NCBI GenBank assembly: GCA_964016885.1
Contig: OZ024754.1
Location: 40,548,001-40,612,000, forward strand
Direction of reading: 5' to 3'
From: Eledone cirrhosa
Taxonomy: Eukaryota
Length of the DNA: 64,000 bases
Shown here: in pieces, positions 3,300-61,076 of the stretch
Layout of the letters: every line of letters begins with the position of its first letter
Numbering within the stretch: the first letter of the stretch is position 1
The notes under the pieces: generated by a model
Told to the model about the DNA's origin: nothing
The model's input: the letters and a program-made list of their open reading frames with translations, nothing else
The model's database searches: none
Translations under genes and position numbers: made by a program

Positions 3300-3568
3300 G
3301 ATTTCTACAGCTGGATGCCCTTCCTAACACCAACCCCATTTATAGTGAGTGCTGGGTGCTTTTTTGCCGTGGCACCTCCACGACCACTTTGCAGTGGAAT
3401 GATAGGGACCCCAGTCCCTATCATCTCATTTCTACAGCTGAGTAAACTGGAGCAATGTGAAATAAAGTGTCTTGCTCAAGGAAACAACGCATCACCCGGC
3501 CTGAGAATTGAACTCACAACCTTTCGATTGCAAGGCCAATGCTCTAACCACTAAGCCATGTGCCTCCA
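3300..3568 (-). mobile_element. tRNA-derived SINE family A (tRNA head + conserved core + RTE-type tail)
   Basis: A box TGGCTTAGTGG, B box GAGTTCAATTC, core CCTTGAGCAAGACACTTTA, tail GGAAGGGCATCCAGCTGTAGAAA; other copies ~1101-1255(+), 20476-20788(-), 32725-33055(-), 45260-45440(+), 48820-49080(+), 52665-53004(-). Confidence 0.85.
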
Positions 3569-3601
3569 TAGAATATCTTTTAAAAAACAACCTGGACTTA
3601 C

Positions 3602-6600
3602 CTGGGCTTGAAGTTGTCATGGATGCTGCCGAAATATTTGATGCAAGTTTTAACATATCTTCAGTACTAATTTCTCCAGAAGAATCTGCATTTGAAAGTC
3701 GTTTAACCAATGATTTAGCTGCTTTGCCTTCAAATTCTATGTCAGAACCTGAACCAATGAGATCAAGAACATTAAACTTAATTTTTGGTTGTCTTTGAGA
3801 GCGCCTTGGTTCAGTCAATGAATAGCCAACTGTCCTAATGGGGGTGTCCCAGTCACTTTGTGTCATACTGCTGGAATCTCGTTTACCATCACTACTACTC
3901 ATTATACTTTTATCATTATATCCCTCATTTGGTGTAGTGTTGTTATAATTGCTCTCAACAGTGCTTACCATTGAAGAACTATCAGTATTTGGAGTAGTAA
4001 AGTCTTCGGCAATGAATTCTTGTTTGATCTGCTGTTGAAGTCCAACTTTATTTCCAACCAAGCTACTTGTTTCCTTTTCCACATCTACTTCCATAGAATC
4101 ATCTTTGGTCTTAGTCTCCGCCGATACGCCATCATTAGAAATATCTAACTGAGAACCATCAGAGAGTTCAACTTTTATGTTTTCCTTCAGTGAAGCAGTT
4201 TTTGACTGAACCTTGTCATCTTCAGCCACAGCTTGATCAAGACATATCTCTGTTGAACTGCATGTCTTACTTTCTGTAGGATTGGAATCTGTTTCTTTTA
4301 TAGTTGGATTCTGATTACTAGAATTACTAGAGCTAACAGCATTCACAGGATCATTTATGTTATCTACAGATAATTGGTTATCATTCTTCTTGTCATCTTC
4401 AGAGTTTTCCTTACTACTCATAATTCCTTGGCTTTTATTATCAGATTCATGCGAACTATTAGAAGCACTAACTGTTGTATTTTGAACAGCTTCGTTCTGC
4501 TTGACTGACTCACAAGAATTGCTGCATTCAACAACAGAATTAATATTAACATCATCATTATTATTGTTGTTGCTGTTGTTGTTATTTATATTGGTCTGAG
4601 ATTGTGAATTGTTTTTAGATTCCTTCTCAACATTAATGTCTTTTATAACATTTAATTCAGTTGATTGACTGATGCGCTGGGGACTGTCCCTGCCTTCAAC
4701 ATGTGCGACCTTATCTAAACATGTTGCTTCAGAAGTTGAAGGTAGTGGTACAGGGGCATCACCTGATGAAACCTCATGTTGAGATTTGTTAGAATCAAGT
4801 TCAGGAAGGGCAACACCTGAATTATTATCTGCTGAAGTAGATTGATCATCAGTTGATAAAGATTTTGTAGTTGATGTTAACAAAACGTCTCCACTTAACG
4901 AGCTCTCTTCAATTATCTTGTTTTCAGATGAAGAAGATACATTTCCGGCAGATGTTGTTGTTGTATCATTAGATGATGTCATCTTATCTTTTGACATTGA
5001 AGATTCATTACAACTGGATGGCAATTGTGGGTCTTTTTCTATAGATGCTGATGACTCCTCCGCTTTTGAAACTGGTGCTAATGCTACTGTCTTACCTGCT
5101 GTGGTTGTAGTATTATTGTGGGAAACAGATTTGACATCCGTGGTAGATGGCAGATTTACATTAGCAATGGAAGGAAAGGGTTGAGTATTATCTCCAACTA
5201 ACACAGTGGCCTTCTCACCTGACGTAGAAACAACCATAATACTTTCTTGTGACAAGGTTCTGTTACTGTCTGATGTCAAGTGAGGTGATTGAATTGGGGT
5301 GACATCTGATTTTGATAAAATAACATCCTTATTACAAGACAAGGTTGACTCACTAGGTACAACAATGAAATCCTTTCCTTCAGGTTTACTAACACTAGGG
5401 TATAAATCATCGTGAGCTGTTGCATCAATATCGCTCAACAAGCTACTTGTTGGTGTCATTGTAGAGGATTCACTGCATTCATTGTGTGCAGACATAGAAG
5501 TGCTGTGTAAGTATGCTACAGTTGAAGATTGTTTCATGAAGCTGCTATCAATTGTTGCATCACTCTGATCTGGCTTCAAGTTGTTGAAATTTGACAATAC
5601 AGAACTACTGGATATGGAAGGTAACTCCAGAGTATCTGGATTCATGGTTAAACTCGGAAGATTTGGTCCGATATTATTATTATTATTAGTAGTAGTAGTA
5701 ATAGTAGTATGGTCATTTGATACATATACACCAGAATAAGAAGCTGTAGTATTAGGATAATTTGAAAGAGAAGTAGCTTGAAATGGATTAGAGGTTGAAA
5801 TTGATGACAAACCCATGTGCTGCTGCTGCTGCTGGTAGCTATTTTGGGAGTGAATACCATTACCATCTGAAGAAATGGCAGGCAAGGGATTGTTTGAGGT
5901 ACTGGTGGTGTTATCTGAAGGATTTGATAAGGGGAGTTGAGAGACTGGCTGAACCTGAGGGTTATAGAAAATACTAGGAGTAGAAATAACTCCAGAAGTT
6001 CTTGGAATTGTCAAATGAATATCATGAGCAGCAAGGATATCACTTGCAGATGTTAGCAAGGGTGTTTGAGTTATGTATGGAGATATTTCTATTGGGCTAC
6101 CAGTTGATCGTGATGAGGCTGGAGATTGCTGCAGGGAACTGCTAGAACTGAGATTAACATTCAGTGACTGAGATGGAGATAACAGCGAACTAATGGGGAG
6201 CAATTTGTTGGAGGGTCTATTTAAGTTTCCTGAAAATGCTGACTGAGAGGTTAAATATTGTTGATTAGTAGATACCGGTACCGGGCCGCTGACAGTATTA
6301 ACTAAACTTATTGAACTATTGGCTGAACTAGCAGACATAGACACAACCTGGTTATCATTTAAACTGCCTGTAGGATAATTCAAAGACCTTAAACTAGCAG
6401 AAACAAGGTTTAAATCTTGTACTGTTGAATCTGCCAAGTTACTAGGATTAAAAGATGAAACAGGCTTATTAGGAAGATAACTTTCAACGTTGGTTTTATA
6501 AGGAAAATTAGATTCTCTCTGAAAACTTGGCTCAGCAGTAATAATGTTCTTGGTATTTTTATCGTCATTGTTTTCCGACTGACTCTTTGGAGACTGATAT

Positions 6601-6797
6601 AAGAAATTATCAGCAGTATTGGCTAATAAATGCATGTTGCATTCAGTAACTTGATTACCTGATGGTTTTGTATCCAACAGGGGAACTGTCTTGCTAATTT
6701 GCTCCATTGGTTCTTTATGTTCAGATTCTAATTCATTTCTACCTCCAGAATCGCAATGGTCAACTGTGTCCAAAACATTTTTGTTACAATTTTCCAT
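3602..6797 (-). CDS. MBD-domain protein, first coding exon (~1065 aa Ser/Thr/Asn-rich low-complexity region). Model: 6797-3602, 2591-2535, 1805-1692, 3' end not found in window
   Basis: 1121-codon ORF; acceptor ctatttcag|ATAG at 6818; ATG of MENCNKNV at 6797; donor CCAG|gtaagt at 3602/3601 (phase 1) splices in frame to the MBD exons. Confidence 0.85.
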
Positions 6798-7692
6798 GTT
6801 CAATTCATATACAGCTATCTGAAATAGGGTTAAAACATGGACATTCATTATCTTCATTTAACAACATCACATCATTAATTAAATAAATGATAAGCGCCTT
6901 TCATATGAAATGGAATAAAGAAGGAAAACTGTTGCTGTGTACTCAGAAAATATTGGGTATATTAAAACTGACAGAGATGTCAGACTGACAAACAAGCAGG
7001 ATTTCTCACATTTTCATTAGTAATTTGATATTTGAAACATTTCTTAAATAAATTATGATTAGGCTTTAATATAAGTTGAAGGAGGAAGATGTAGTTTGCT
7101 TGAAGCATTGTGTATGGTGTAGAAAAATATGAAATTTGAAGGCCACAACAATGTGAAATGGATGAACAATAAAATAAATAAGAACAGATAAATTAGTAAC
7201 ATCTTGCTTCTGTCCTTATTTTCTTGTTCATCCATTTCACATTGTCATGGCCTTCAAACTTCATATTTTTCTATAAGTAAGAACATTTTAAACTGCACTT
7301 CACCATGAGTGTGGTCCTTGAGCTAGTTTAGTCCTGGATAATGACAACCCATGACAACATGGAAAACACATCAGATGACAACAGTTTGGTCATGGTTAGC
7401 ATAGCACATCTTTGATCACAGGTCAGCTGAAACAGGACTGACCTGGGAGTAAACAAAAACGATTTTTAGATAGAAGACTGCCCTCTTTTCACTATTTTTT
7501 TTCTTTTATTCTTTTACCGGTTTCAGTCACTAGACTGTGGTTATGCTTGGGCACCACCTTAAAGGGATTTTTAAAAAAAACCTATCACCCCCAGTACTAA
7601 TTTCATTGATCTCTTTCAGTTGAATTGCTAAGTATCAAACACAAACGTGTGCATGTGTGTAAATATATATCTATATATACACACACATATAT

Positions 7693-16911: not shown

Positions 16912-17294
16912 GTAAGGAGTATTTTATAGTTAGCATTTACATTACTCTATATATATTATTATATTTTCACCATAAATACTTTATTTCACATAATTATCTC
17001 ACATAATATCAAATCTACCACATTTTGATATCATGTATTTTGAAAACAATACCTTAACATAAGTATAAGTAACTGGTTATGGCTGGTTTGCACAGAAAGA
17101 GGTGAGAGAATTCTAGCCGGATACAGCCGGTTTAAATGCTAAAGGTTTAAACTAATTTTGTTAATATATATGTGACTGTATAGTTAAGAAGATCATTTCA
17201 CAAATATATTGTCTTGGCTTCTATTCCATTGTGGCACCGTGGGCGGAGGTTCATTACCGGTTCTTTTGTCATCTTTGTGAGGTTCAACATCCGC

Positions 17295-17920
17295 AGATCA
17301 GCTTTCATCTCATCTGCTACTCCTACCATCCTCAGATCAACTTTCATCACCACATCTGCTACTCCTACCATCCTCAGATCAACTTTCATCACCACATCTG
17401 CTACTCCTACCATCCTCAGATCAACTTTCATCACCACATCTGCTACTCCTACCATCCTCAGATCAGCTTTCATCACATCTGCTACTCCTACCATCCTCAG
17501 ATCAACTTTCATCTCATCTGCTACTCCTACCATCCTCAGATCAACTTTCATCACCACATCTGCTACTCCTACCATCCTCAGATCAACTTTCATCACCACA
17601 TCTGCTACTCCTACCATCCTCAGATCAGCTTTCATCACATCTGCTACTCCTACCATCCTCAGATCAACTTTCATCTCATCTGCTACTCCTACCATCCTCA
17701 GATCAACTTTCATCTCATCTGCTACTCCTACCATCCTCAGATCAGCTTTCATCTCATCTGCTACTCCTACCATCCTCAGATCAACTTTCATCACCACATC
17801 TGCTACTCCTACCATCCTCAGATCAGCTTTCATCACATCTGCTACTCCTACCATCCTCAGATCAACTTTCATCTCATCTGCTACTCCTACCATCCTCAGC
17901 TCAGCTTTCATCTCATCTGC
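17295..17920. repeat. 39/42-bp minisatellite amplified from an RTE 3' fragment (minus strand VMKVDLRM)
   Basis: unit TCAGATCAACTTTCATC(ACCACA/TCA)TCTGCTACTCCTACCATCC; flanks continue as RTE sequence. Confidence 0.9.
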
Positions 17921-18083
17921 TCACATCATCCTTAGTCTACTCCTACTACATACTCCTTCCAGTTGCCACTCCTGGTACTTCTTTACTCAGCAATCTCCCA
18001 CCATAACTATTCTGTGTCGATATCAGCATCTTCTTCCATTCTTGCACACTGTGTACTGTATTAATTGTATCCTTATTTCTTAG

Positions 18084-26562: not shown

Positions 26563-27499
26563 TACGGCTACAATACTGATTCCAACAATTAATGGTACGG
26601 CACCATGTCACCTCTTTTAATTCAGACATCACTGAATTTGCTGTGATCCACCAATCATATATTAACTGGGTGGCAACAGAGGGCACTGTGTGTCATTTGT
26701 ATTGACCCCGTAAGGATGAAAGGCAAAGCTAACCTTGGCGGGATTTGAACTCAAATAATAATAATAATAATAATTTCTACTATAGGCACAAGGCCAGCAA
26801 TTTTGGGGAAGGGGAAAGTCGATTAAATCGACCCCAGTACATTACTAGTGCTTTATTTTATCGACCCCGTAAGGATGAAAGGCAAAGTCAACCTCGGCGG
26901 GATTTGAACTCAGATCGTTAATAATAATAATAATAATAATTTCATTTATTGGCCACAAGGGCTGACATATCTAAATATCGGCAACTGTTGAAGCTCCAAT
27001 GAGTTGTGGAAACTGTTCTCCTATTTTACATAGAATCATCCCTAGTTATGGCTGCCAAACACAGTCTAAGTGTCAAAACAATTACACTTTTATATTCTAA
27101 TAGTTAAGGTGTCTAACCCATACTAGCTTGGAAAAATGGATGTTAAATGATGATAATGATGATGGAGTAGGGAGAGTGTTTCTACCTTCATACAAAGGTG
27201 TGTTGGTTTTGTAGTAAAAACATTGTAAACAAGACAGCAGTTCTCTAAATATTTACACTGACTTATTACATGACCTTCTTTTAGTCCAGCAAAAGAGATA
27301 ATTCAGCACAAGTTTGGAATCAAAGGGGTTGGAAAATATGTTGAAATATATTGTGTAAAAAAAACATTACTTTCTCTTGTTTGTCATTCTTTGTCTTTTA
27401 TATTCCTACCTCATTGTAGCAGCTTTCTGAAGTCCTCGTCAGTCAATATGTATATATTTAGTGGGACTTTTTATCTTAGACACACTATGTAAGAAATTC

Positions 27500-28698
27500 C
27501 CTGACTTCCATACGGATCTATACTATGACAATGGTCTGGTACTATCAAGCCATAAAATGGCCATGACCTGACCATGTTTAGGAAAAAATCTGATAACTAC
27601 CTTTAACAACCTAGGACTAAAAATGTCCATCTCTACCAACTTCACAAATGTTAACTTAGATCTACAGATCCTTAAGGACTCTAACCATCCCACTGTAGTC
27701 TTTAAAAATCTCATTAATAATATCAGAAAGAGGATATCAAACCTCCATTCTAGCAAAGCTATCTTCAACAGGGCAACCCCTACTACAAATCAGCCTTAAA
27801 TAACAGCGGTTTCTCTGATCACCACCCTATATCTAGCAAGAGAAAATCTGGACATAAAGCCGCTGTATGGTCCATGCCATGCTCAATGTTAAGACTAATG
27901 CAGGTAAAACATTCCTAACACTTCTCTGTAGGCAATAAATACCAGCAAATATTCAACCGCCACAGTGAAAATAGGCGACTCTTGTCACAAAAACATAAAA
28001 TCCCACATCACCAACAAATGCAAAAGCCTTCCACCTTATGAATGCTCATGCAGAAGGGTAGAGGCATGGCCCAATAGGGCAGTGGTGATCCAACTAGAAC
28101 CACCAAACAGAAGCTTAGAGTTATGTAGGAATGTCTGAGAGCCGGTTCCTGAACCGCAAAACAACCTTCAGATATCTTGACAAAAAACATACCACTCAGC
28201 TCACAAAAAATGTATGGAACTTCAAAGATAATGGCACAGCATTCTCCATTAAATGAAGGATACTAGAAAGGTCCACTCCCTAAATCACTGGAGCAAAATT
28301 CTGTCAGCTGTGTAGCTTGGATAATTGGAATATACTCTCCAAGGAAATACTTCTTAAATATGTGGCTCAACTGTTTAAATCGTTTTTGATAGAGTTACCT
28401 CCCTTGTCCTTTACAAAATTTTAAGTTATTGGTCAAATTATATGAAACAGTCCTGAAGTCATTTCTACAGTAAAATGACTTGAGTGCCATTCAGAGTCGC
28501 TGCAAGAATAACACTGAATTGGCAGGCCTTCACAGAATCAAGACTATTCTCTGTTTGTGTTTTCTGTAATCCTGTTATTGATTAGCTAATTTTTGCAATA
28601 TACACCTGATGACTCCACCAAAGTCGTGATCTGATGTAATTAGACCACAGAAATATGTTATATAAGGAAAAAGGTAATAAAAGAAAACGCACCTTGTA
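27500..28698 (+). mobile_element. Degenerate Penelope-like element (RT C-terminus + GIY-YIG region + 3' terminus)
   Basis: frameshifted peptides SNHPTVVFKNLINNIRKRISNL, YYKSALNNSGF, LNVKTNAGKTFLTLL, VWNFKDNGTAFSIK*RILERSTP*ITGAKFCQLC; CTGATGA..GAAA..AATAAA at 28606-28681; ends in (TA)n. Confidence 0.7.
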
Positions 28699-30594: not shown

Positions 30595-31179
30595 TTAGGT
30601 TGAAGTAGGAGGTAGAAGTTCTGCGTAATAGGAAGGTCTATCAATTCCAAGAATTGAGAAAACCATCGGTATACCATAAGTTACGTTAATGGCGACAATC
30701 AAAAATGGCAAAAAACTATCAGTCAGCTCATAAATTTGCATCCTTTTGATCTTTGGGTCTTTTATATTAATTCCAAATATATGTTTGCAAACATTTCGGA
30801 TTATCATCCGCAGAAGTTCCGCCGTAATCAACATAATAGGGACACCTATGATCAACCTTATAAAACATAAAATCACTGAGGTGAGTGTTGGTATTTCCAG
30901 TGGCACTGGAATTGGATAACTGGATGTTGCAAAACCATGTTGGTATGACAGCCACGAGCCAACAGAAATACCAGCACCAACACCAATAAGTAAGGTTGTA
31001 TCCCTGCGTGCTGTGTTCCACTTGTCCACCGGTGGATATAGTAAGCAGAGTAGGAACGGTACCCCTATAGTAAAGAAGGGAGCGACAGGATGTGTTACTG
31101 AAAAATGATCCAAAACTTGAAGATATGGGTAGATTAGCGGCAGAATTATGCAGACATATAGAACTCCAACAATAATATC
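30595..31179 (-). CDS. SGPP1: SGPP exon 3 (DIIVGVLYV...ELLPPTST*)
   Basis: ttcttttccag acceptor; WNTARRDTTLLIGVGAG motif; TM segments; TAA at 30595; candidate AATAAA at 30482-30487. Confidence 0.92.
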   Translation of the reverse strand, partial: DIIVGVLYVCIILPLIYPYLQVLDHFSVTHPVAPFFTIGVPFLLCLLYPPVDKWNTARRDTTLLIGVGAGISVGSWLSYQHGFATSSYPIPVPLEIPTLTSVILCFIRLIIGVPIMLITAELLRMIIRNVCKHIFGINIKDPKIKRMQIYELTDSFLPFLIVAINVTYGIPMVFSILGIDRPSYYAELLPPTST

Positions 31180-33216
31180 CTGGAAAAGAAAGCAGAAAAA
31201 AAATTATCGGAAAAGTGTAAAATTACTCCGCAGCAAATTTTATATTTTTTTAACTGAAATCTTTGGGAATTTCTTTTCATGTAAAAATTGATTCAGCTCT
31301 TTTAACCCTTTAGCATTCACATTACTCTATATATACTATTATATTTTCATGGTAAAGGCATTACTTCGCATAATATCTCACATAATATCGAATCTATGAG
31401 ATTTTGAAAACAATACCTTAACATCAGTTTGAGCGACCAGTTACAGCCAGTTTCAACAGAAAGAGGTAGAGAATTCTGGACGGTTTGAACATTAAAGGGT
31501 TAATACAAAACTACTGGAAATATCTCCTTGTTCTATAACACAAAGCTGTTTATTTGAAAATGTTCATATTTATATCTAAAAGTAATACGACAGAGTGATT
31601 ATGGTGTCAAATTAAAAATATTTCAGTATTTGTTCTGGCCCACTATGCTCTGGTGACAAATTGGCAGCATCATTAGAATGTCAACTAGAATATTTTGGGG
31701 TATTTGTTCCAGTTCTCTGATCTCTGATTTCAAATCCTGCCAAGGTCAACTTTGACTTTCATCCATCTGAGGTTGAAAAAAGAAGTACCAGTCTAGTTCT
31801 GGGGTCGAATCATCCACTTTATCTCCTTTTTACTTCCTCTCTCTCTCTTTCTTTGGAAGAAACCTGCTGGGTTCAGACCTAGGTTCAGACCAGGGTTTTC
31901 AAAAAAAAAGCCCAACAAAAGCCATATGGCACTACAGTGCCCCCACGACTACATCAGGAGCACTATGCTCTGAGCTCAAATCCTGCCAAAGTCAACTACG
32001 CCTAACACCCTTTTAACATCAATAAATGAAGAACCAATTCTTTCCGTCTTTCTCTGGAAGAAATCGGTTGGTTCTGACCTGCAAATGTGTGGGCCTCACC
32101 AGCTTTAAAAAGCCCAAGACATGCTATCAAAACAGTGCCCCTATCACTTCCTCAAGAGTTAAGGGTTCTTTTGTTGTCTGCTGTATTCAAAGGTTAACCT
32201 TCCATCATAATTTTATGTAAGAACCTTTAAGTTATGTTCCAAACAGTGGCTTAATAGTGAGAAAGTTAGTTGTATAACTAAATCCCTCCAAATTCTTGAT
32301 TATTTTCGAAATTAATTTGGTATTCTAGGCAGTGCCTTTCATTAGAAATACGGTTGGCTAAAGGATACAGCTTTCTAGATAGCCAAATAATGTGTAGTAG
32401 ATTACAAATATAGATCTGGAGTTATCATACTTACAAAGATCAAATTCACTCCTTATTTCACACCTCAACTCCATTTTTAATCAATTTGGACTTTGGAGTT
32501 ATCTCCCTTCCCTTTCTTAATAAGAATTATCATTAATGCTAATCATTTTTCTTTTCATTAGGGATGTAATTTTGATTTTTTTAAATGTTTGGTTCCATAC
32601 ATTAAGCATGTTATCCCATACTTAACTAAATATATATAACAAAGAAAGTGAGGTAAGAGACGGAGCTCAGCCGTTGGGGGTCCTGACTCTTTTCCTATAT
32701 ATATATATATATATATCATTTTTTCATTTCATTTCATTTTACATCCGCTTTTCCCTGCTAGCAAGGGTGGGATGGGAACTGATTCTGGCTTGATTTCTAC
32801 AGCTGGATGCCCTTCCTAACACCAACCTCATTTACAGTAAGTGCTGGGTGCTTTTTTGCCATGGCACCTCCACAACCACTTTGCAATGGAATGATAGGGA
32901 CCCCAGTCCCTATCATCTCATTTCTACAGCTGAGTAAACTGGAGCAATGTGAAATAAAGTGTCTTGGTCAAGGAAACAACACATCACCCGGTCTGAGAAT
33001 TGAATTCACAACCTTTCGATTGCAAGGCCAATGCTCTAACCGCTAAGCCATGTGCTTTTTTACCGTGGCGCCTACACGACCACTTTAGAGTGTGGACTGG
33101 GCGCTTTTTTGTCGTGACACCTCCATATTGTCTATATGCTTCGGTTAGTTGCCGTGGGAAGTCGGGTTTTCTGTATTACTCCATGACGCCAGAGGTCACG
33201 TTCCTGTCTCATCACC

Positions 33217-33308: not shown

Positions 33309-33398
33309 CAAAACTGAATGCATTCCCAGGTAAATCCTGCTAAGTGATATTAATGTAGTCCAGGCTATAGCAAACATCAGGCCAATATTAAATGGAAA
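33309..33398 (-). CDS. SGPP1: SGPP exon 2 (FPFNIGLMFAIAWTTLISLSRIYLGMHSVL)
   Basis: cttttgacag acceptor, TTG|gtgtgt donor, 90 nt; C3 catalytic motif SRxYxGMH. Confidence 0.92.
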
Positions 33399-39803: not shown

Positions 39804-40068
39804 CTTTGTTTTTCAATTTGTTTACCTAAAAACGTGTGTTGAGACAGATATTGTTATACTTTGGGAGGGTCATGCTACCAATAAAAACACATGTGTGTTT
39901 TTATTGGCAGCACGGCCCTCCCAAAGTATAACAATATATATATATATATATCATGATGGATTCAGTTTGAAACTAGTCAGACCATTACTCAACAGAGTAC
40001 TCAATACTTGGGGTAGTAGAGTATGGTTATATAAAGAGTCAGGACCCGTCGGCTGAGCTCTTGCCATT

Positions 40069-41265
40069 TCAACAGCTAGTCAACTGTTGAGACAGTATCA
40101 ACAGATGACCCTGTCTCAACAGTTGAGACAGTCTCAACAGATGACACTGTATCAACAGTTGAGACAGTATCAACAGTTGACACTGTATCAACAGATGACA
40201 CTGTATCAACAGATGACACTGTCTCAACAGTTGAGACAGTCTCAACAGATGACACTGTATCAACAGTTGACACTGTGTCAACGGATGATACTGTATCAAC
40301 AGTTGAGACAGTATCAACAGTTGACACTGTCTCAACTGTTGATACAGTGTCATCCGTTGACACAGTGTCAACTGTTGATACTGTCTCAACTGTTGATACT
40401 GTCTCAACTGTTGATACAGTGTCAACTGTTGATACTGTCTCAACTGTTGATACAGTGTCATCCGTTGACACAGTGTCAACTGTTGATACAGTGTCATCTG
40501 TTGATACAGTGTCAACTGTTGATACTGTCTCAACTGTTGATACAGTGTCAACTGTTGACACTGTATCAACAGTTGAGACTGTCTCAACAGATGACACTGT
40601 ATCAACAGTTGACACTGTGTCAACAGTTGAGACAGTATCAACAGTTGACACTGTATCAACAGTTGAGACAGTATCAACAGTTGACACTGTATCAACAGTT
40701 GAGACTGTATCAACAGTTGAGACTGTATCAACAGTTGAGACAGTATCAACAGTTGAGACAGTATCAACAGTTGAGACTGTCTCAACAGATGACACTGTAT
40801 CAACAGATGACACTGTATCAACAGTTGAGACAGTATCAACAGTTGACACTGTATCAACAGATGACACTGTATCAACAGTTGAGACAGTATCAACAGTTGA
40901 CACTGTATCAACAGTTGACACTGTATCAACAGTTGAGACTGTATCAACAGTTGACACTGTATCAACAGTTGAGACTGTCTCAACAGATGACACTGTATCA
41001 ACAGTTGACACTGTGTCAACAGTTGAGACAGTATCAACAGTTGACACTGTATCAACAGTTGAGACAGTATCAACAGTTGACACTGTATCAACAGTTGAGA
41101 CTGTATCAACAGTTGAGACAGTATCAACAGTTGAGACTGTCTCAACAGATGACACTGTATCAACAGATGACACTGTATCAACAGATGACACTGTATCAAC
41201 AGATGACACTGTCTCAACAGTTGAGACAGTCTCAACAGATGACACTGTCTTAACTATTGACACAG
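40069..41265. repeat. Self-complementary 9/18-bp satellite (GACACTGTATCAACAGTT variants) with an internal inversion at ~40326-40557
   Basis: alternating TCAAC-A-GTTGA and GANAC-T-GTNTC pseudo-dyads; open frames on both strands. Confidence 0.95.
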
Positions 41266-41407
41266 CATTGTCTGGAAGACTAGACTTCTCAGGAAATTGA
41301 CCAAACTCTGGTTCCCCTGAACAGTGTTCTATTGCTGGGATGTTGACTTTTTGAAAAAATGTTATCAAAGCAAGTTTTGATTCTGTTGATGATATGCTGA
41401 GAAGTCA

Positions 41408-41895
41408 GGTAGACCAGGTGTGTAATCAACAGTAAACCAGGTGTGTAAGCAGGAGCAGACAGGTGTGTAAGCAGCAGTAGACCAGGTGTGTAAGCAGCAG
41501 TAGACCAGGTGTGTAAGCAGCAGTAGACCAGGTTTACAAGCAGATGTAGACCAACTGTGTAAGCAGCAGTAGACCAGGTGTGTAAGCAGCAGTAGACCAG
41601 GTGTGTGAGCAGCAGTAGACCAGGTGTGTAAGCAGCAGTAGACCAACTCTGTAAGCAGCAGTAGACCAGGTGTGTAAGCAGCAGTAGACCAGGTGTGTGA
41701 GCAGCAGTAGACCAGGTGTGTAAGCAGGAGTAGACCAGGTGTGTAAGCAGGAGTAGACAGGTGTGTAAGCAGGAGTAGACAGGTGTGTAAGCAGCAGTAG
41801 ACCAGGTGTGTAAGCAGCAGTAGACCAGGTGTGTAAGCAGCAGTAGACTAGGTGTGTAAGCAGGAGTAGACAGGTGTGTAAGCAGCAGTAGACCA
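41408..41895. repeat. 23-bp minisatellite (AGTAGACCAGGTGTGTAAGCAGC), ~21 copies
   Basis: direct inspection. Confidence 0.92.
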
Positions 41896-44800
41896 GTATT
41901 GATCTGGTTATCAAAGAGGAAATCATGGCCTCAACACTTCAATTTCATCGTCATTCTACAAAGACTAGAAAGACTAAAACTTTAAAGTTCAAATAATTGC
42001 TATGATATCATTTCTGTTACTTTCATTTTTACTGTATTATTGTATATTGTATACTTTGGTTGAAGTCTGGTAGACAGCCATTTGCAATGAAAGCCTTCAG
42101 CCATTTGCAATGAAAGCCTTCAGCCATTTGCAATAAAAGTCGTCAGCCATTTGCAATAAATACAGACATATTCACACTTGTACTTTGAATTCGAAAGTTG
42201 AACCTTTTAACCAAATAAAACTATTTGATGCTTGACTACTGTTACTTATTTTATGATTCTGAAGAGATAAAAGCAAAGATGAACTCTGTAGAATTTGCAC
42301 TCAGAACATAAACAACCAAAACTGGATTCTTATTTTTTTCCACTGTACCATTCTAATTTGATCTGTAATTCTGACAATTGTCGTTGTCTAGTTAACTCTT
42401 AAAGTCTTGTACCACATGCAACCACATGAGTAAAACATTTTTGAAGAATACAAAACAACACTGTGACTACATGACATTAAAAAACTAAAGTGTTTTCTTT
42501 AATACTACAAATTTTCACAACGATTAAGTAACATTTGAATTAACAAAACCTCTTTTGAAATATTTGTAGTATTTTACTGAGTTAGTTTAAAATATTAAAT
42601 TACTGAATATTGTAAAGGATACACTAGTTACTGTAAAATGACTCCAACATATGAAGGTAGTTGTAAGAAAATGAATTTTACTTCTATCTACCATAGTGGT
42701 GGGTGAGGTGGGGATACTTTAATAGAAACCAGTCTGATTGTAATTTATATTTGTTTAAGTGAACATAACAAAGACACCTACTGTGAAATAAGACCAACAG
42801 ATAAAGTTGTATAATGCGGTTGTATGAATGTCTTTTGGTTTACACTTACAGAGTGTAGTTTAACCCTTTGAATTCTCTCACCTCTTTCTGTTCAAACCTG
42901 TTGCAACTGACCCCTTATACTGATGTTAAGCTATTGTTCTCAAAATAAATAATATCAAAATCTCATAGCTTTGATATTGTGTGAGATATTACGTGAAATA
43001 AAGCCTTTACTGTGAAAATAAAACAGTAAATATCGAGTAATGTAAATGGTAAAGGGTTAAAGCAAAGAGATGGAATATAGTCTGGAGTTGAACATGCTAA
43101 CACTGCAGGAGAAAGTTTTCAATGATGCTCTTAGAAAATAAATTTCAACACAAGAATAAGACTTTAGTAGTGTAAAATAAAACCAAATTAAGTAGGTAAA
43201 GATTATTTCTACATAAATTTTCTTATGTTGACAGAGGAGCAGAAATTTGTAGGGAAGAAAAAATTTTTCAACTGAATTAATTCAGTATAGAGTTAGTATT
43301 TATTTTAGTAACTCTTGGGAACTATACCCACCACCACACTCTCCTGAAACAGAACTGTATTTATATTATAACTTTCATTCCTTTATTCTTTTACTTGTTT
43401 TAGACTGTGGTCATGCTGGGGCACCACCTTCATTTAGCCAATCATGGTCTCTGTACTTATTTAAGTCTGGTACTTATTTTATAAATGTCTCTTTTGATAA
43501 ATTGATGCGTTAAAGACACAAACACCAACAGACACAAATATAAACATAGACACACACACATATGTACACATGTATGTATATATATATATATATATATGTT
43601 CCCTACATACAAAGTTAACCTACAGTCAGTAGGCATCTCTTAACCAAACATACACCCCAACTCCATCCTTCCACTCCCACCAACACCAACCTTTCTCTAT
43701 AAAGTTATGTTGGTACCACAGAACATCCAGTCCAAACTAAAGAGGTTGTGTAGGTGTCACGACAAAAAAAAAAAAGCACACAGTCCACACTGTAAGGTGG
43801 TTGGTGTTAGGAAGGACATCCGGTTGTAGAAAACCTGCCAGAGACACTTCCATACCAGTGAGACTACCACCTTACAAGATGGATTGGGTGCTTTTTATTA
43901 TCACACCAGTACTACTACCTCACATTTTATGTATGTATATATATAAGTATATATGTGCAAGTTAACTGCATCTGTAGGTGGTATGCCAAGTGAGCACCCG
44001 ATGCTCTTGTCAGAGTATGAATAGTATAAGAATAAAGGAACAAAGAATCAGTATTGCATCATAATATATTTAATAACATATTACATATGTTATTAAATAT
44101 GATATCGACACAGTGGACAGCACGGAAAAAGGAGGATGGGGTAGGGTGTGTGGGGTGGGGGTGTACATTGGGTTAAGAGGTGCCTACTGACTGTAGGTTT
44201 GTATGCAAGGGAAGGCAGGTTTTCTGTACAACTGCATGGCGCCAAAGATCTTGATCCAGTGACATTGTCTTAGAGAGGTGTACGCGTGCATGTTCAGTTT
44301 TTATCACCTCGTCCCAGGTTTTTCTTGGTCTACCCACTCCGTAGCTTCCATCAATTTTCATTGCCCTGCACTTGTTTTATGCAGCTGTCGTCCTTCATAC
44401 GCATCACATGGCCATACCAACGCAATCTCCTCTCCAGAACACAACATTTGATACCTCTTATGCTTAGTCTCTCTCTCAATTCGTTTATGCTTTGCTGTAT
44501 TTTCATAAAGAAATGATATGCAGGGAATTACTGAAGAGACCCCAGTATTTTTATAAAGAAATGATAGGGAGGGAATTACTGAAGGGATCCCAGTATTTTC
44601 ATAAAGAAATGATATGGATGGAATCACTGAAGGGACCCCAATCCCCCAGTATTTTCATAAAGAAATGATAGGGAGGGGACCACAGAGCAGATTGAGGTCA
44701 GAAAAGGAATGCTTTTGTGAAATTGTCACTGTGTATGTAGCACAGGTGTGAATAAGTGTCACACTGAACATGACTCTCTAACAATTACTTTTCTTTCTTT

Positions 44801-53964: not shown

Positions 53965-54064
53965 GAAGGATTCAGGACCCCAATGGCTGAGCTCCTGCCA
54001 TTGCAACAGCTAGATCTAGCTGTTGCAATGGCAGGAGCTCAGCCATTGGGGTCCTGAATCCTTC
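53965..54064. repeat. Perfect 100-bp spacer-less palindrome
   Basis: GAAGGATTC...GCTAGA|TCTAGC...GAATCCTTC, centre 54014/54015. Confidence 0.95.
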
Positions 54065-54424
54065 ATATTACCCACTCTACTACCCCAAATATCAAGCACT
54101 CTAGTGAGTAATGGTCTAATATAAACACTGTAAAATAAACAGCTTTGTATGATAGAACCAGGAGAGAAAATCTCTTGCAGTGAACCAGAGACTGGTCCAT
54201 TGGAAAACTTATAACTAACAAATATATTGATCGGTAATTGTGATATAAAATAATTAAATGTAATCAGTTTGACAGCTGTTAAAATATTGTTTATAAAATC
54301 TGAAAATGGCCATCCTCAGTTAAAATATTGATTGTTAAAGTGTAAAATGTTACTGATTTTGATTGAGGATTTTCCTAGAAATTATTAATCAAACATTTGG
54401 CATGTAAAATTATTTTTAAAATCA

Positions 54425-58020: not shown

Positions 58021-58180
58021 ACAGCTGTGAAACAAGGAAGATTAACTACATGTTTATCAACTAAAACCAGAAATACACATGTTGGAATTAATAACTATAA
58101 ACAATGGTAAAAGGAATTGATGTCCCGTTCGTATTTTAAACCTGCTGAAAATTTAGGGAATAAAATAAATATTTACTTAC

Positions 58181-58888
58181 ATCGTATCTCTGGTGGAATA
58201 GATATAGCATAGAGAAAGGTATGCAAGTGCCAACCATAGCATGTGTTGAAGGCATTCCGTACTCCAGTTCATATCGAGCTTCCAACTTAATGACTGGGGG
58301 CGAAATAGGACGGGGTCTCTTCACGATGTCTTTAGTAGCTTGGCCTAAGTAAAGTGTAATCCACCACATCACTACAACTTTCCGGGAGACGAAAAAATCT
58401 AAGTTCCACACGATGAAAGGGAAAAAAGTAGTGTAAAACAATTCGTCGCCCAAAGCGGCACCAAAACTGAACAAGTAGTAGAGAGATTTGTATTGTATTT
58501 TGTAAGGGAGTTTGTTCGTTTTCTCGTCTAAATTAGAAGTGCTTTTAATGGGCTTGCCGCCGTTTTGGAAGTTAGATTGGCTCCCCGGATCCATTTCCGT
58601 GATTCCTGGTATTTTCGGCCCTTTTAAATTGCGACGGATACAGTTATCACTACTTTCATGTTCATCTGGAACCAACACCCCATTTTGATCATACTGACAG
58701 ACCTTTCGGGGATCATCTTCATCGCGAAAAACTATTGAAGAATTCTTTAATCCCGATTGAGAATACATAGTGCTGGATGATGTCGTTTTTGCGGAATTTT
58801 CGTTGTAGGACAATCCACAAAGACGTTGAAACCGAGCAACTAGATATGGGTCATCAAGATATAAAATAATACTGTGTAACATATCCAT
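58181..58888 (-). CDS. SGPP1: Sphingosine-1-phosphate phosphatase (SGPP1/2 family, PAP2 fold), exon 1. Model: 58888-58181, 33398-33309, 31179-30595 (1383 nt, 460 aa)
   Basis: [14 protein letters not shown]1 motif [17 protein letters not shown] (C2); GAT|gtaagt donor, phase 0; SGPP1 vs SGPP2 orthology cannot be resolved. Confidence 0.93.
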
Positions 58889-60143
58889 TATTTACAGAAA
58901 TCACCACTCCTTCAGAAAACTTGTTTGATGTAAAGATATGCTATCTACAAGAGAAACTCTCGACCATTAAACCGATCACTGTGTTAAGATTATTATATAA
59001 TAGATATTAAACACTTGTCTCGCATTCTAGAGAGAGAGAGGTCAAATATCTAAAGTTGTTTATGGAAATCTCTAAGTAGTGTTATTCAGCTGTGAGATCT
59101 TACAATAAACTAAATAGTTCGTTATGACAACATACAGCCAATGCTGGCTTTTCGTTCTTCTTTTCTCTTTCTTCTTGCTTGATAGAAACTCGTAGTAATT
59201 AACGGATAAACAGTGTGTACATCGGGAAATATATATATATATAAGAAACAATTGATTAATTTATATATATATATAGGTTGTTATATATGGCTGGTATTGT
59301 AAGCTAATGAACTGAATCTCCTCCATGCCTGGTGAAATGCGCCGTTGTTGTGAGGCGAAAGCCAGCTGAGAACACATGACATAATAGAGTCATGATGTTA
59401 CTGTAAGTGACACAGCTTTGGATTTACGGTGTCACCTAATAAACCGTCTCCTCTTTAAAATACACCTACTCACCTAGACTTTAATCTGATCAGCAGGTTT
59501 AGCCTTTGTTTATTATTAATAGTAGTAGTCCTAACTTTCACAAGATACTACACAAAATATTAAAAATAAGTACGTAGTCCAGAATTTTTTTTTTTCTTTT
59601 GTGAATGGTGTGTTATTTAAAAGATATCGGGGAAACTTAGGAGTTATTTTAATATATTAACATATTAGCCAAGTTATTAATAAAAAGTTATGATATTATT
59701 TTTATCCTGCCGAGGTTAGCTTTGCCTCATCTTTCCGGAGGTCGATAAAATAAAGTACCAGTAATTCACTCGGATCGATTTAATCGACTTTCCTCTTTTC
59801 CCAAAAATTGTTGACCTTGTGCCTAAATCAAAAACCAATATTATTATTATTAATAGAGTATTATTATTATTTACGGGGTCGATAAAATAAAGTACCAGTA
59901 ATGCACTGGATAATTGCTGGTCTTGTGTCTAAAGTAGAAACAATTATTATTATAATTAATAACATTATTAATTAATGTACACCCATCATATGACGGATAA
60001 TTTTAGGAGTATATATTTGCCCCAGTAGGTAATACTCAGTAATTAAAATCATACATTAATAAGAATTAACACGTATATATATATTTTATATATATATTTA
60101 TTAAAATAACAGATTAAAGTTTAAGCAAATTTATTATTATTAC

Positions 60144-60502: not shown

Positions 60503-60534
<32 letters not shown>

Positions 60535-60586
60535 GTTTTATAAATAGTGACATACCCAGGAATCAGATCTTAACAGTTCAGGTTCC

Positions 60587-60664
<78 letters not shown>

Positions 60665-61076
60665 GGAACCTGAACTGTTGAGATCTGATTCTAGGATATG
60701 TAACTATTTATAAAACAATTTTTTTATTTTATCTAATGAGAGTGTACCAAAGTTTTGGTACCCTTGAAATATATATAATAGAATAAATATGGTTTTATAA
60801 ATATAGTTTCCATTTATTAATATCATTGATATATATTTGGCTAAAACGATTCAAACATTATAAAATATAGTATTAAATTAAAGAAAGCAGTTATTTGAGA
60901 AAAAGAGAAGAAAGGAAATTGAGGAAAGCAACGTGTATTTTCAAAAACGTTTATTCCATTCGTCTCAAAGAAGGGAGAATGAAAAGAAAATCTAGCTTCC
61001 TTCAAAAACTGTTAGCAGACGACACGTGTGTGTGTGTGTGTTATTGAACGAAACTTCTTCTTCTTCTTCTTCTTAA

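What the first reader, a model, noticed from the sequence alone, without database searches (positions are those of the whole stretch)
39951..40095. The palindromic satellite grows out of the hairpin end of a Penelope-like terminal element
Seen: 39979-40080 (AGACCATTACTC..GGGGTAGTAGAGT..TCAGGACCC..GGCTGAGCTC.TGCCATT.CAACAGCTAG) is homologous to the reverse complement of 54015-54118 and to 32661-32692. It starts with a hammerhead-like remnant (ATGATGG..GAAACTAGTC, 39953-39978) beside (AT)n. At 54014 the CAACAGCTAG end is the axis of a perfect 100-bp palindrome. At 40069 the same end (TCAACAGCTAGTCAACTGTTGA) is the first unit of the array. Inference: this terminus self-primes, giving a palindrome after one round and the satellite after many. 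Penelope-like RTs are related to telomerase (established), so reiterative element-driven repeat synthesis is a testable and possibly undescribed satellite-birth mechanism.
Basis: partly seen in the sequence, partly recalled or inferred. Interest (0 to 1): 0.72.

Follow-up and report, generated by a model that had tools for sequence, protein, structure and literature searches.

The report
Penelope stub abutting a palindromic minisatellite
A short, decayed end of a very common Penelope-type jumping gene sits directly against a 1.2-kb tandem repeat found only here; the mirror-image ends of this family are a known pattern, and the repeat likely started as a patchy repair joint and then likely grew by ordinary DNA copying errors, not by telomerase-like synthesis.

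Summary
The coordinates and homologies hold. 39952-40080 is the 3' end (one-sided tail plus half a hammerhead) of a Hydra-clade Penelope-like element (PLE) on the MINUS strand; the family links to an RT plus GIY-YIG ORF. CAACAGCTAG is no terminus: it lies in hammerhead stem II, where copies break off; 20 of 173 sampled copies run on. The hammerhead named on the plus strand rests on private mutations. Inverted arms are common (87 of 173; genome-wide 347 of 1593 anchor matches), a published PLE pattern with self-priming already proposed; the scan noted it before on other DNA. Arrays are not in excess: a direct repeat of TCAACAG follows 7 of 1593 anchors and only this one is long; none of 173 other copies has an array made from this end. 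The 18-bp unit resembles the element end only weakly (p 0.06-0.13), has an internal inversion and a 396-bp duplication, which points to DNA-level growth. Weak local clues (zero gap, fold-back-like first unit, inverted-arm remnant at the far end, 2-3x reiterated junctions in sibling copies) favour seeding at the junction (about 55%). Telomerase-like array synthesis is unlikely (about 5%).

The parts
39934..39951 (.). (AT)n target microsatellite at the element's 3' end
   Evidence: same context in most copies
39952..40029 (-). about 80-90-nt one-sided 'tail' of the PLE; its inner part is homologous to the sequence that follows the hammerhead in intact tandem copies
   Evidence: (78% over 100 nt to the intact unit)
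40030..40080 (-). pLTR end with the 3' half of a type I hammerhead (stem II 3' strand 40070-40080, GAAA 40070-40067, stem III, cleavage triplet mutated GUC to GAC at 40050-40048, stem I 3' strand); 5'-truncated at 40080
40080..41263 (.). single-locus 18-bp minisatellite, 65.8 copies, unit of two quasi-palindromic 9-mers; intronic
40080..40097 (+). first unit, a variant seen once in 65 units; holds CTGTTGA, the reverse complement of TCAACAG at 40069-40075
40326..40557 (-). inverted block inside the array; 55-bp hairpin arms round a 13-nt loop at 40313
41265..41283 (+). possible 19-nt remnant of the element's inverted arm at the far end of the array (weak)
   Evidence: 0.5-2.5% of 1214 control windows score as high
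39837..39847 (+). 11-mer identical to array bases 40085-40095, in the tail of a neighbouring PLE-like copy where it departs from that family's usual letters; possible template for the seed (weak)
   Evidence: 0.9% of 2162 control windows
39804..39933 (.). neighbouring inverted-repeat-plus-tail copy of a second PLE-like family
53965..54118 (.). second copy of the family: perfect 100-bp palindrome (53965-54064), tail-less arm on the left at an AT run, tail on the right to 54118
32661..32692 (+). third, 32-bp fragment (stem III to pLTR end) next to (AT)n

Best explanation
This is an old, 5'-truncated copy of a Hydra-clade Penelope-like retroelement whose break point lies in stem II of its hammerhead, and the abutting 18-bp array likely began as a short patchwork insert at that break point and then likely expanded by DNA-level slippage, unequal exchange and template-switch inversion. 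Shown: identity, strand, ORF link, hammerhead fold, truncation hotspot, excess of inverted arms, absence of an excess of arrays, inversion and block duplication in the array. Inferred: the element's endonuclease nicks (AT)n; reverse transcription starts at one of two fixed RNA sites (with or without the tail); it stalls in the ribozyme's long stem II; the stalled 3' end is joined to a second, oppositely primed cDNA (inverted repeat) or to target DNA, sometimes with short templated inserts (snap-back, slip-back, jumps to nearby DNA). At this locus such an insert (TCAAC, TGTTGA, GACAG) would have given the first quasi-palindromic units. Confidence: element part about 0.95, junction seed about 0.55.
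For: Family and strand: L185 holds a decayed RT and GIY-YIG-linker ORF upstream of the same 3' end; intact 784-codon frames in 3531-bp tandems share hammerhead and tail. Hotspot: 101 of 115 copies stop matching within 21 nt beyond CTAG (sample chosen to reach CTAG). Inverted arms 87 of 173, exactly one tail in 82 of 87; 15 solo tail-less copies among 114. Two start sites and extension of both strands were shown in vitro for another PLE (PMC11167929, main text read). Seed clues: zero gap; unique first unit with the reverse complement of the element end; inverted-arm-like 19-mer at the far end (p 0.005-0.025); upstream 11-mer (p about 0.01); reiterated junctions in L227 (2.9 x 32 bp), L229, L230, L108, L112. 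DNA-level growth: 55-bp internal hairpin and inverted block, 170-bp exact repeat at 396-bp distance.
Against: The unit-to-element similarity is not significant (p 0.116, 0.126, 0.056, 0.063 under four scorings). The seed clues were picked after looking, and the remnant scores best with one of four reference copies. The inverted arm does not continue beyond 19 nt and no (AT)n follows it. The degenerate last unit has the same ACT-type half as the first, so both may simply be old edge units. Minisatellites are dense here without PLEs: 10 strict arrays in the 64 kb; the three families tested hit the flank of none of the other arrays. No orthologous or empty allele could be read. Asymmetric joints could also be later deletions.
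Confidence: 0.55

Rival explanations
1. The array is older than, or independent of, the insertion; the truncated PLE end was joined to its edge during integration or brought next to it by a later deletion.
For: Arrays are frequent (10 in this window; 0.06 array ends per kb in flanks of copies) and the family has thousands of copies (3248 candidates), so some abutments are expected. The two 9-bp halves differ at about half of their positions, which could mean an old unit. Unit-element similarity not significant. L026 shows an unrelated array 19 nt from a junction.
Against: Zero gap plus three weak local matches must all be chance; only 1 base of microhomology at the joint itself.
Confidence: 0.32
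2. One reading: the PLE reverse transcriptase self-primes at this end and reiterates it like telomerase, giving a palindrome after one round and the array after many.
For: Fold-backs are abundant at this position; self-priming of PLEs is proposed in PMC3846280 (passages); a few junctions show 2-3 reiterations.
Against: Not a terminus. Only 7 of 1593 anchors have a direct TCAACAG within 30 nt (about 3 expected from base composition, my estimate) and 1 has a long array. The unit shares at most 7 to 9 contiguous bases with the window copy of the element and aligns to the family's break region no better than chance allows. Units occur in both orientations with higher-order blocks. Simple fold-back of one cDNA predicts both or neither arm with tail, against exactly one in 82 of 87, and does not give copies whose tail-bearing arm lacks the sequence of the other arm (e.g. 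L130, L169, L317) without a later deletion.
Confidence: 0.05
3. The array is a repetitive coding exon (TVSTVD repeats) on the minus strand whose stop codon falls in the element's CTAG.
For: Open frame of 442 codons at 41404-40079 ending at TAG; most variable unit positions are third codon positions; 47 non-repetitive codons precede it.
Against: It lies in an intron of a PAP2-family (sphingosine-phosphate phosphatase-like) gene; four of six frames run through most of the array simply because the unit lacks stops; no homologue of its first 60 residues (lengths 243-774 only); the internal inversion argues against protein-level constraint (inference).
Confidence: 0.04
4. Junction, inversion or perfect palindrome are assembly artefacts.
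For: Palindromes and tandem arrays are error-prone in assembly (general knowledge); the left junction was not seen in independent contigs.
Against: The right edge 41236-41420 is present in short-read contigs of run X2, which may be the source sample; the 54014 palindrome ends at the family's usual tail-less boundary.
Confidence: 0.04

Closest known systems
Hydra clade of C-terminal EN+ PLEs (Craig et al. 2021, PMC8557442; section 11, passages and supplement search hits seen)
   Same: RT followed by GIY-YIG, DKT, CxCX5C linker, CxxC and CxH motifs, hammerhead, (TA)n target
   Different: RWR for RWK; unit 3.5 kb rather than under 3 kb; tail about 80-90 nt rather than 30-40; very high copy number; no tree built here
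Inverted pLTR plus one-sided tail with junction palindromes in EN+ PLEs (Arkhipova et al. 2013, PMC3846280, passages; PMC8557442 Fig. 2 legend)
   Same: head-to-head arms, tail on one side, palindromic or microhomology joints; self-priming proposed there
   Different: here the break points cluster within about 20 nt in hammerhead stem II, and some joints carry 2-3 reiterated pieces
Two-site internal initiation by the Anolis PLE PAc (Frangieh et al. 2024, PMC11167929; abstract, main text and start of methods read)
   Same: tail equals the stretch between two start sites; AT-rich target; uncleaved hammerhead RNA as template; both strands extended
   Different: different clade; inverted joints and arrays were not studied in the parts read
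PLE hammerheads (Cervera and de la Pena 2014, PMC4209133; first quarter read) and non-LTR retrozymes (bioRxiv 10.64898/2026.07.22.740005; first fifth read)
   Same: short stem I, long stem II with an unpaired 5' base, palindromic stem III loop, pairs on opposite strands
   Different: retrozyme arrays repeat a whole ribozyme-bearing unit; this 18-bp unit holds no ribozyme
Templated inverted insertions at DNA breaks (PMC11724301, search listing and abstract start only; polymerase-theta type joining recalled)
   Same: short fold-back and patchwork inserts of 5-34 bp at a joint
   Different: expansion of such an insert into a kilobase array is inferred here, not shown

Membership tests
EN+ Penelope-like element | single ORF with RT and GIY-YIG endonuclease linked to this end | tested here: met
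   L185 decayed ORF with same 3' end; intact L214-L216; motifs read by eye, Pfam gave no hit on the query but homologues carry PF26215 and the top hit PF01541
EN+ Penelope-like element | tandem or partial tandem copies forming pLTRs | tested here: met
   3531-bp tandem of 784-codon frames at C1:437.2 Mb, a younger sister family, 75-78% alike over the pLTR end
EN+ Penelope-like element | inverted 5'-truncated copy and one-sided tail | tested here: met
   87 of 173 inverted, 82 of 87 with exactly one tail
EN+ Penelope-like element | type I hammerhead in the pLTR, sense strand | tested here: met
   CUGAUGA and GAAA cores; 83% of cells paired against 23-52% for slid controls; RNAalifold alone did not find this fold; activity untested
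Hydra clade | RWK motif, DKT, CxCX5C linker, no CCHH, CxxC/CxH in EN | tested here: met
   RWR, SDKTG, CNCPDRSIC, CNLC, CKH in the L214 protein; RWR is a variant
Hydra clade | (TA)n insertion preference | tested here: met
Hydra clade | phylogenetic placement with reference Hydra proteins | not tested
   no reference sequences fetched
Terminal EN-minus PLE (Athena, Coprina) | no endonuclease, chromosome-end location, telomeric repeats | tested here: not met
   GIY-YIG present; copies dispersed, window at 40.5 of 46.3 Mb of C14
Telomerase-like reiterated repeat | unit is an exact copy of a short RNA template, one orientation | tested here: not met
Non-LTR retrozyme | each tandem unit carries a hammerhead | tested here: not met
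   18-bp unit; no hammerhead among the 150 listed Rfam matches on L001 and 14 other loci (43 lower rows not shown)
Satellite DNA family | several loci or long arrays | tested here: not met
   only this locus above 80% identity; other hits 66-79% are arrays with other units, none beside this element (40 of 50 candidates scored)

The most novel reading that the evidence does not exclude
The PLE reverse transcriptase, stalled in hammerhead stem II, slips and re-primes repeatedly on its own product, so PLE 5' junctions are a recurring source of short tandem seeds, and at this locus the enzyme itself wrote the first several units of a minisatellite: a telomerase-like side activity that founds new repeats.
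Probability: 0.1. Interest if true: 0.68.

Novelty: new member of a known kind. Interest (0 to 1): 0.27.

Why it matters
The element and its inverted ends are known biology. Two details have some value for specialists: thousands of copies break within about 20 nt inside the ribozyme's stem II, which suggests that RNA structure sets the truncation point and is testable with the intact ORFs in this genome; and rare reiterated junctions suggest a route by which retroelement joints could seed minisatellites. One locus cannot establish that route.

Tried and rejected
A guessed intact plus-strand hammerhead had 0 matches in the genome. The extension in L018 proved to be the 3' end of another repeat family (LINE-like, my reading), not the PLE. 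Other array hits have different units and no element beside them. The first fold-back classifier had false calls from (AT)n and was replaced (threshold 26, null 95th percentile 22, 99th 34). Read laying gave no orthologous allele: repeats swamped the left flank; X4, X5 and X7 had nothing on the right flank, which is no test. No RNA holder listed. The stretch 41236-41415 is single-copy. Pfam found nothing on PLE fragments or on the intact ORF. RNAalifold did not recover the hammerhead unaided. PMC9977147 (passages) gave no case of PLE-born satellites. Literature searches (listings and abstract starts only) showed no paper on reiterative repeat synthesis by PLEs; the library lacks most subscription papers, and bioRxiv supplements were not consulted. 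Rows dropped: L151 (near duplicate of L150), L322 (no exact anchor), L121-L124 (long regions, not in the tally).

Full report
Observation. The homologies, the 100-bp palindrome at 53965-54064 and the junction sequence at 40069-40090 are as described. The array proper runs 40080-41263, period 18, 65.8 copies. It lies in an intron of a minus-strand PAP2-family gene with coding stretches near 58139-58891, 33309-33398 and 30598-31203 (the name sphingosine-phosphate phosphatase is from recall). The genome is a 3.0-Gb animal assembly.

What the element is. A DNA search gave 3248 candidates, 40 scored; an exact 16-mer occurs 1593 times, some loci twice. The left end is fixed at (AT)n, the right end varies. 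Twenty of 173 sampled copies run 30 nt or more beyond CTAG (12 of 114, 8 of 59), some for over 600 nt, so CAACAGCTAG is internal. In L185 a decayed RT and linker/endonuclease frame lies upstream of this same end on the strand that equals the window's minus strand. A search with the RT fragment of L181 found many relatives at about 70% identity, among them intact 784-codon frames in a 3531-bp tandem whose hammerhead and downstream sequence match the window copy at 78% over 100 nt. The protein shows RWR, DKT, CxCX5C, a C-terminal GIY-YIG-type domain with CxxC and CxH, which fits the Hydra clade as defined in PMC8557442; no tree was built.

The hammerhead. On the sense (minus) strand longer copies read CCCC-CUGAUGA-U-stem II-GAAAC-GGC-loop-GCC-GUC-GGGG. 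The named fold pairs in 83% of cells against 23-52% for slid controls; unaided consensus folding missed it. The window copy keeps only the 3' half and has lost the GUC. CAACAGCTAG is the 3' strand of stem II. Among copies that reach it, 101 of 115 stop matching within 21 nt, so stem II is a truncation hotspot; a stall of reverse transcription at RNA structure is my inference.

Fold-backs. An inverted arm follows in 64 of 114 and 23 of 59 copies; exactly one arm has the tail in 60 of 64 and 22 of 23 (the 29 copies of set A were selected for a tail). Genome-wide, CTGTTGA follows the anchor within 30 nt in 347 matches. This is the inverted-pLTR-plus-tail pattern of PMC8557442 and PMC3846280, and the latter already proposes self-priming. 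The one-tail rule, 15 solo tail-less copies among 114, and copies whose tailed arm lacks the other arm's sequence fit two cDNAs primed at two fixed sites on both nicked strands, as shown in vitro for PAc; later deletions cannot be excluded. Arms normally decay independently: 310 differences in 2058 columns of 45 copies, 49 shared changes. The 54014 copy is an outlier, 0 differences in 48 columns with 8 shared departures from the majority, 2 of them subfamily marks; later homogenisation of a spacerless palindrome is the likely cause (inference).

Arrays. A direct TCAACAG within 30 nt follows 7 of 1593 anchors including the window. Of the six others, L227 has 2.9 copies of a 32-bp piece, L229 and L230 have patchwork joints, none has a long array. 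In 114 copies one strict array starts within 20 nt of CTAG (L026, unrelated 48-bp unit behind an AT run) and one at the end of a longer copy (L092, GT-rich 10-mer resembling the element's GT-rich stretch); in 59 more none starts within 100 nt. A GT-rich expansion inside L013, after which the element resumes, was removed by the microsatellite filter. The window array is single-locus. Its unit matches the element's break region no better than p 0.06-0.13. It holds an inverted block with a 55-bp hairpin boundary and a 170-bp exact repeat 396 bp apart: marks of DNA-level growth. The window has 10 strict arrays, and the PLE families tested lie beside none of the others.

Seed or neighbour. For a seed: no gap; a first unit seen once in 65 that holds the reverse complement of the element end; a 19-nt likeness to the inverted arm at 41265-41283 (p 0.005-0.025); an 11-mer at 39837-39847 identical to the array start (p about 0.01); reiterated joints in sibling copies. 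Against: each clue is weak and post hoc, the last unit has the same half type as the first, and chance abutment is expected a few times among thousands of copies. No empty or orthologous allele could be read. I give 0.55 to seeding with later DNA-level expansion, 0.32 to an independent array, 0.05 to reiterative synthesis of the array by the RT, 0.04 each to a coding exon and an artefact.

Verdict. New member of a known kind; the bold mechanism is not supported, a modest one stays open. Earlier notes of this scan describe the same inverted PLE pattern in this and other genomes; none covers this locus. Interest 0.27.

Noticed in passing
window 60510-60720: Inverted repeat with about 60-bp arms around a long (AT)n core; perfect over 60572-60679. 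Family not identified.
   Followed up: no
window 39804-39933: Second PLE-like family with the same tail, tail-less start and fold-back layout; 18 matches among loci held.
   Followed up: partly
window 53965-54064: Arms identical although diverged from the family, unlike 45 other inverted copies; probable homogenisation.
   Followed up: partly
L214-L215 (G000:C1:437198500-437218000), L216: Young intact Hydra-type PLE in 3531-bp tandems; its hammerhead core reads CUGAGAAG or UUGAGAAG rather than CUGAUGA.
   Followed up: partly
window 27458-28337 (+): Old fragments of another PLE ORF, 27-33% identical to the L214 protein.
   Followed up: no
window 3495-6857 (-): Open frame of 1121 codons, Ser/Asn-rich, probably a host exon.
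   Followed up: no
window 17288-17921 and 41409-41896: Further intronic minisatellites (39-bp and 23-bp units), the second 145 bp from the array studied.
   Followed up: no
L092 / L183: More than 2.4 kb of a GTGGCTGTGT-type array starting where a truncated copy reaches its GT-rich 3' UTR stretch; far end not seen.
   Followed up: partly
L232: Doubled inverted arm with a repeated junction.
   Followed up: no
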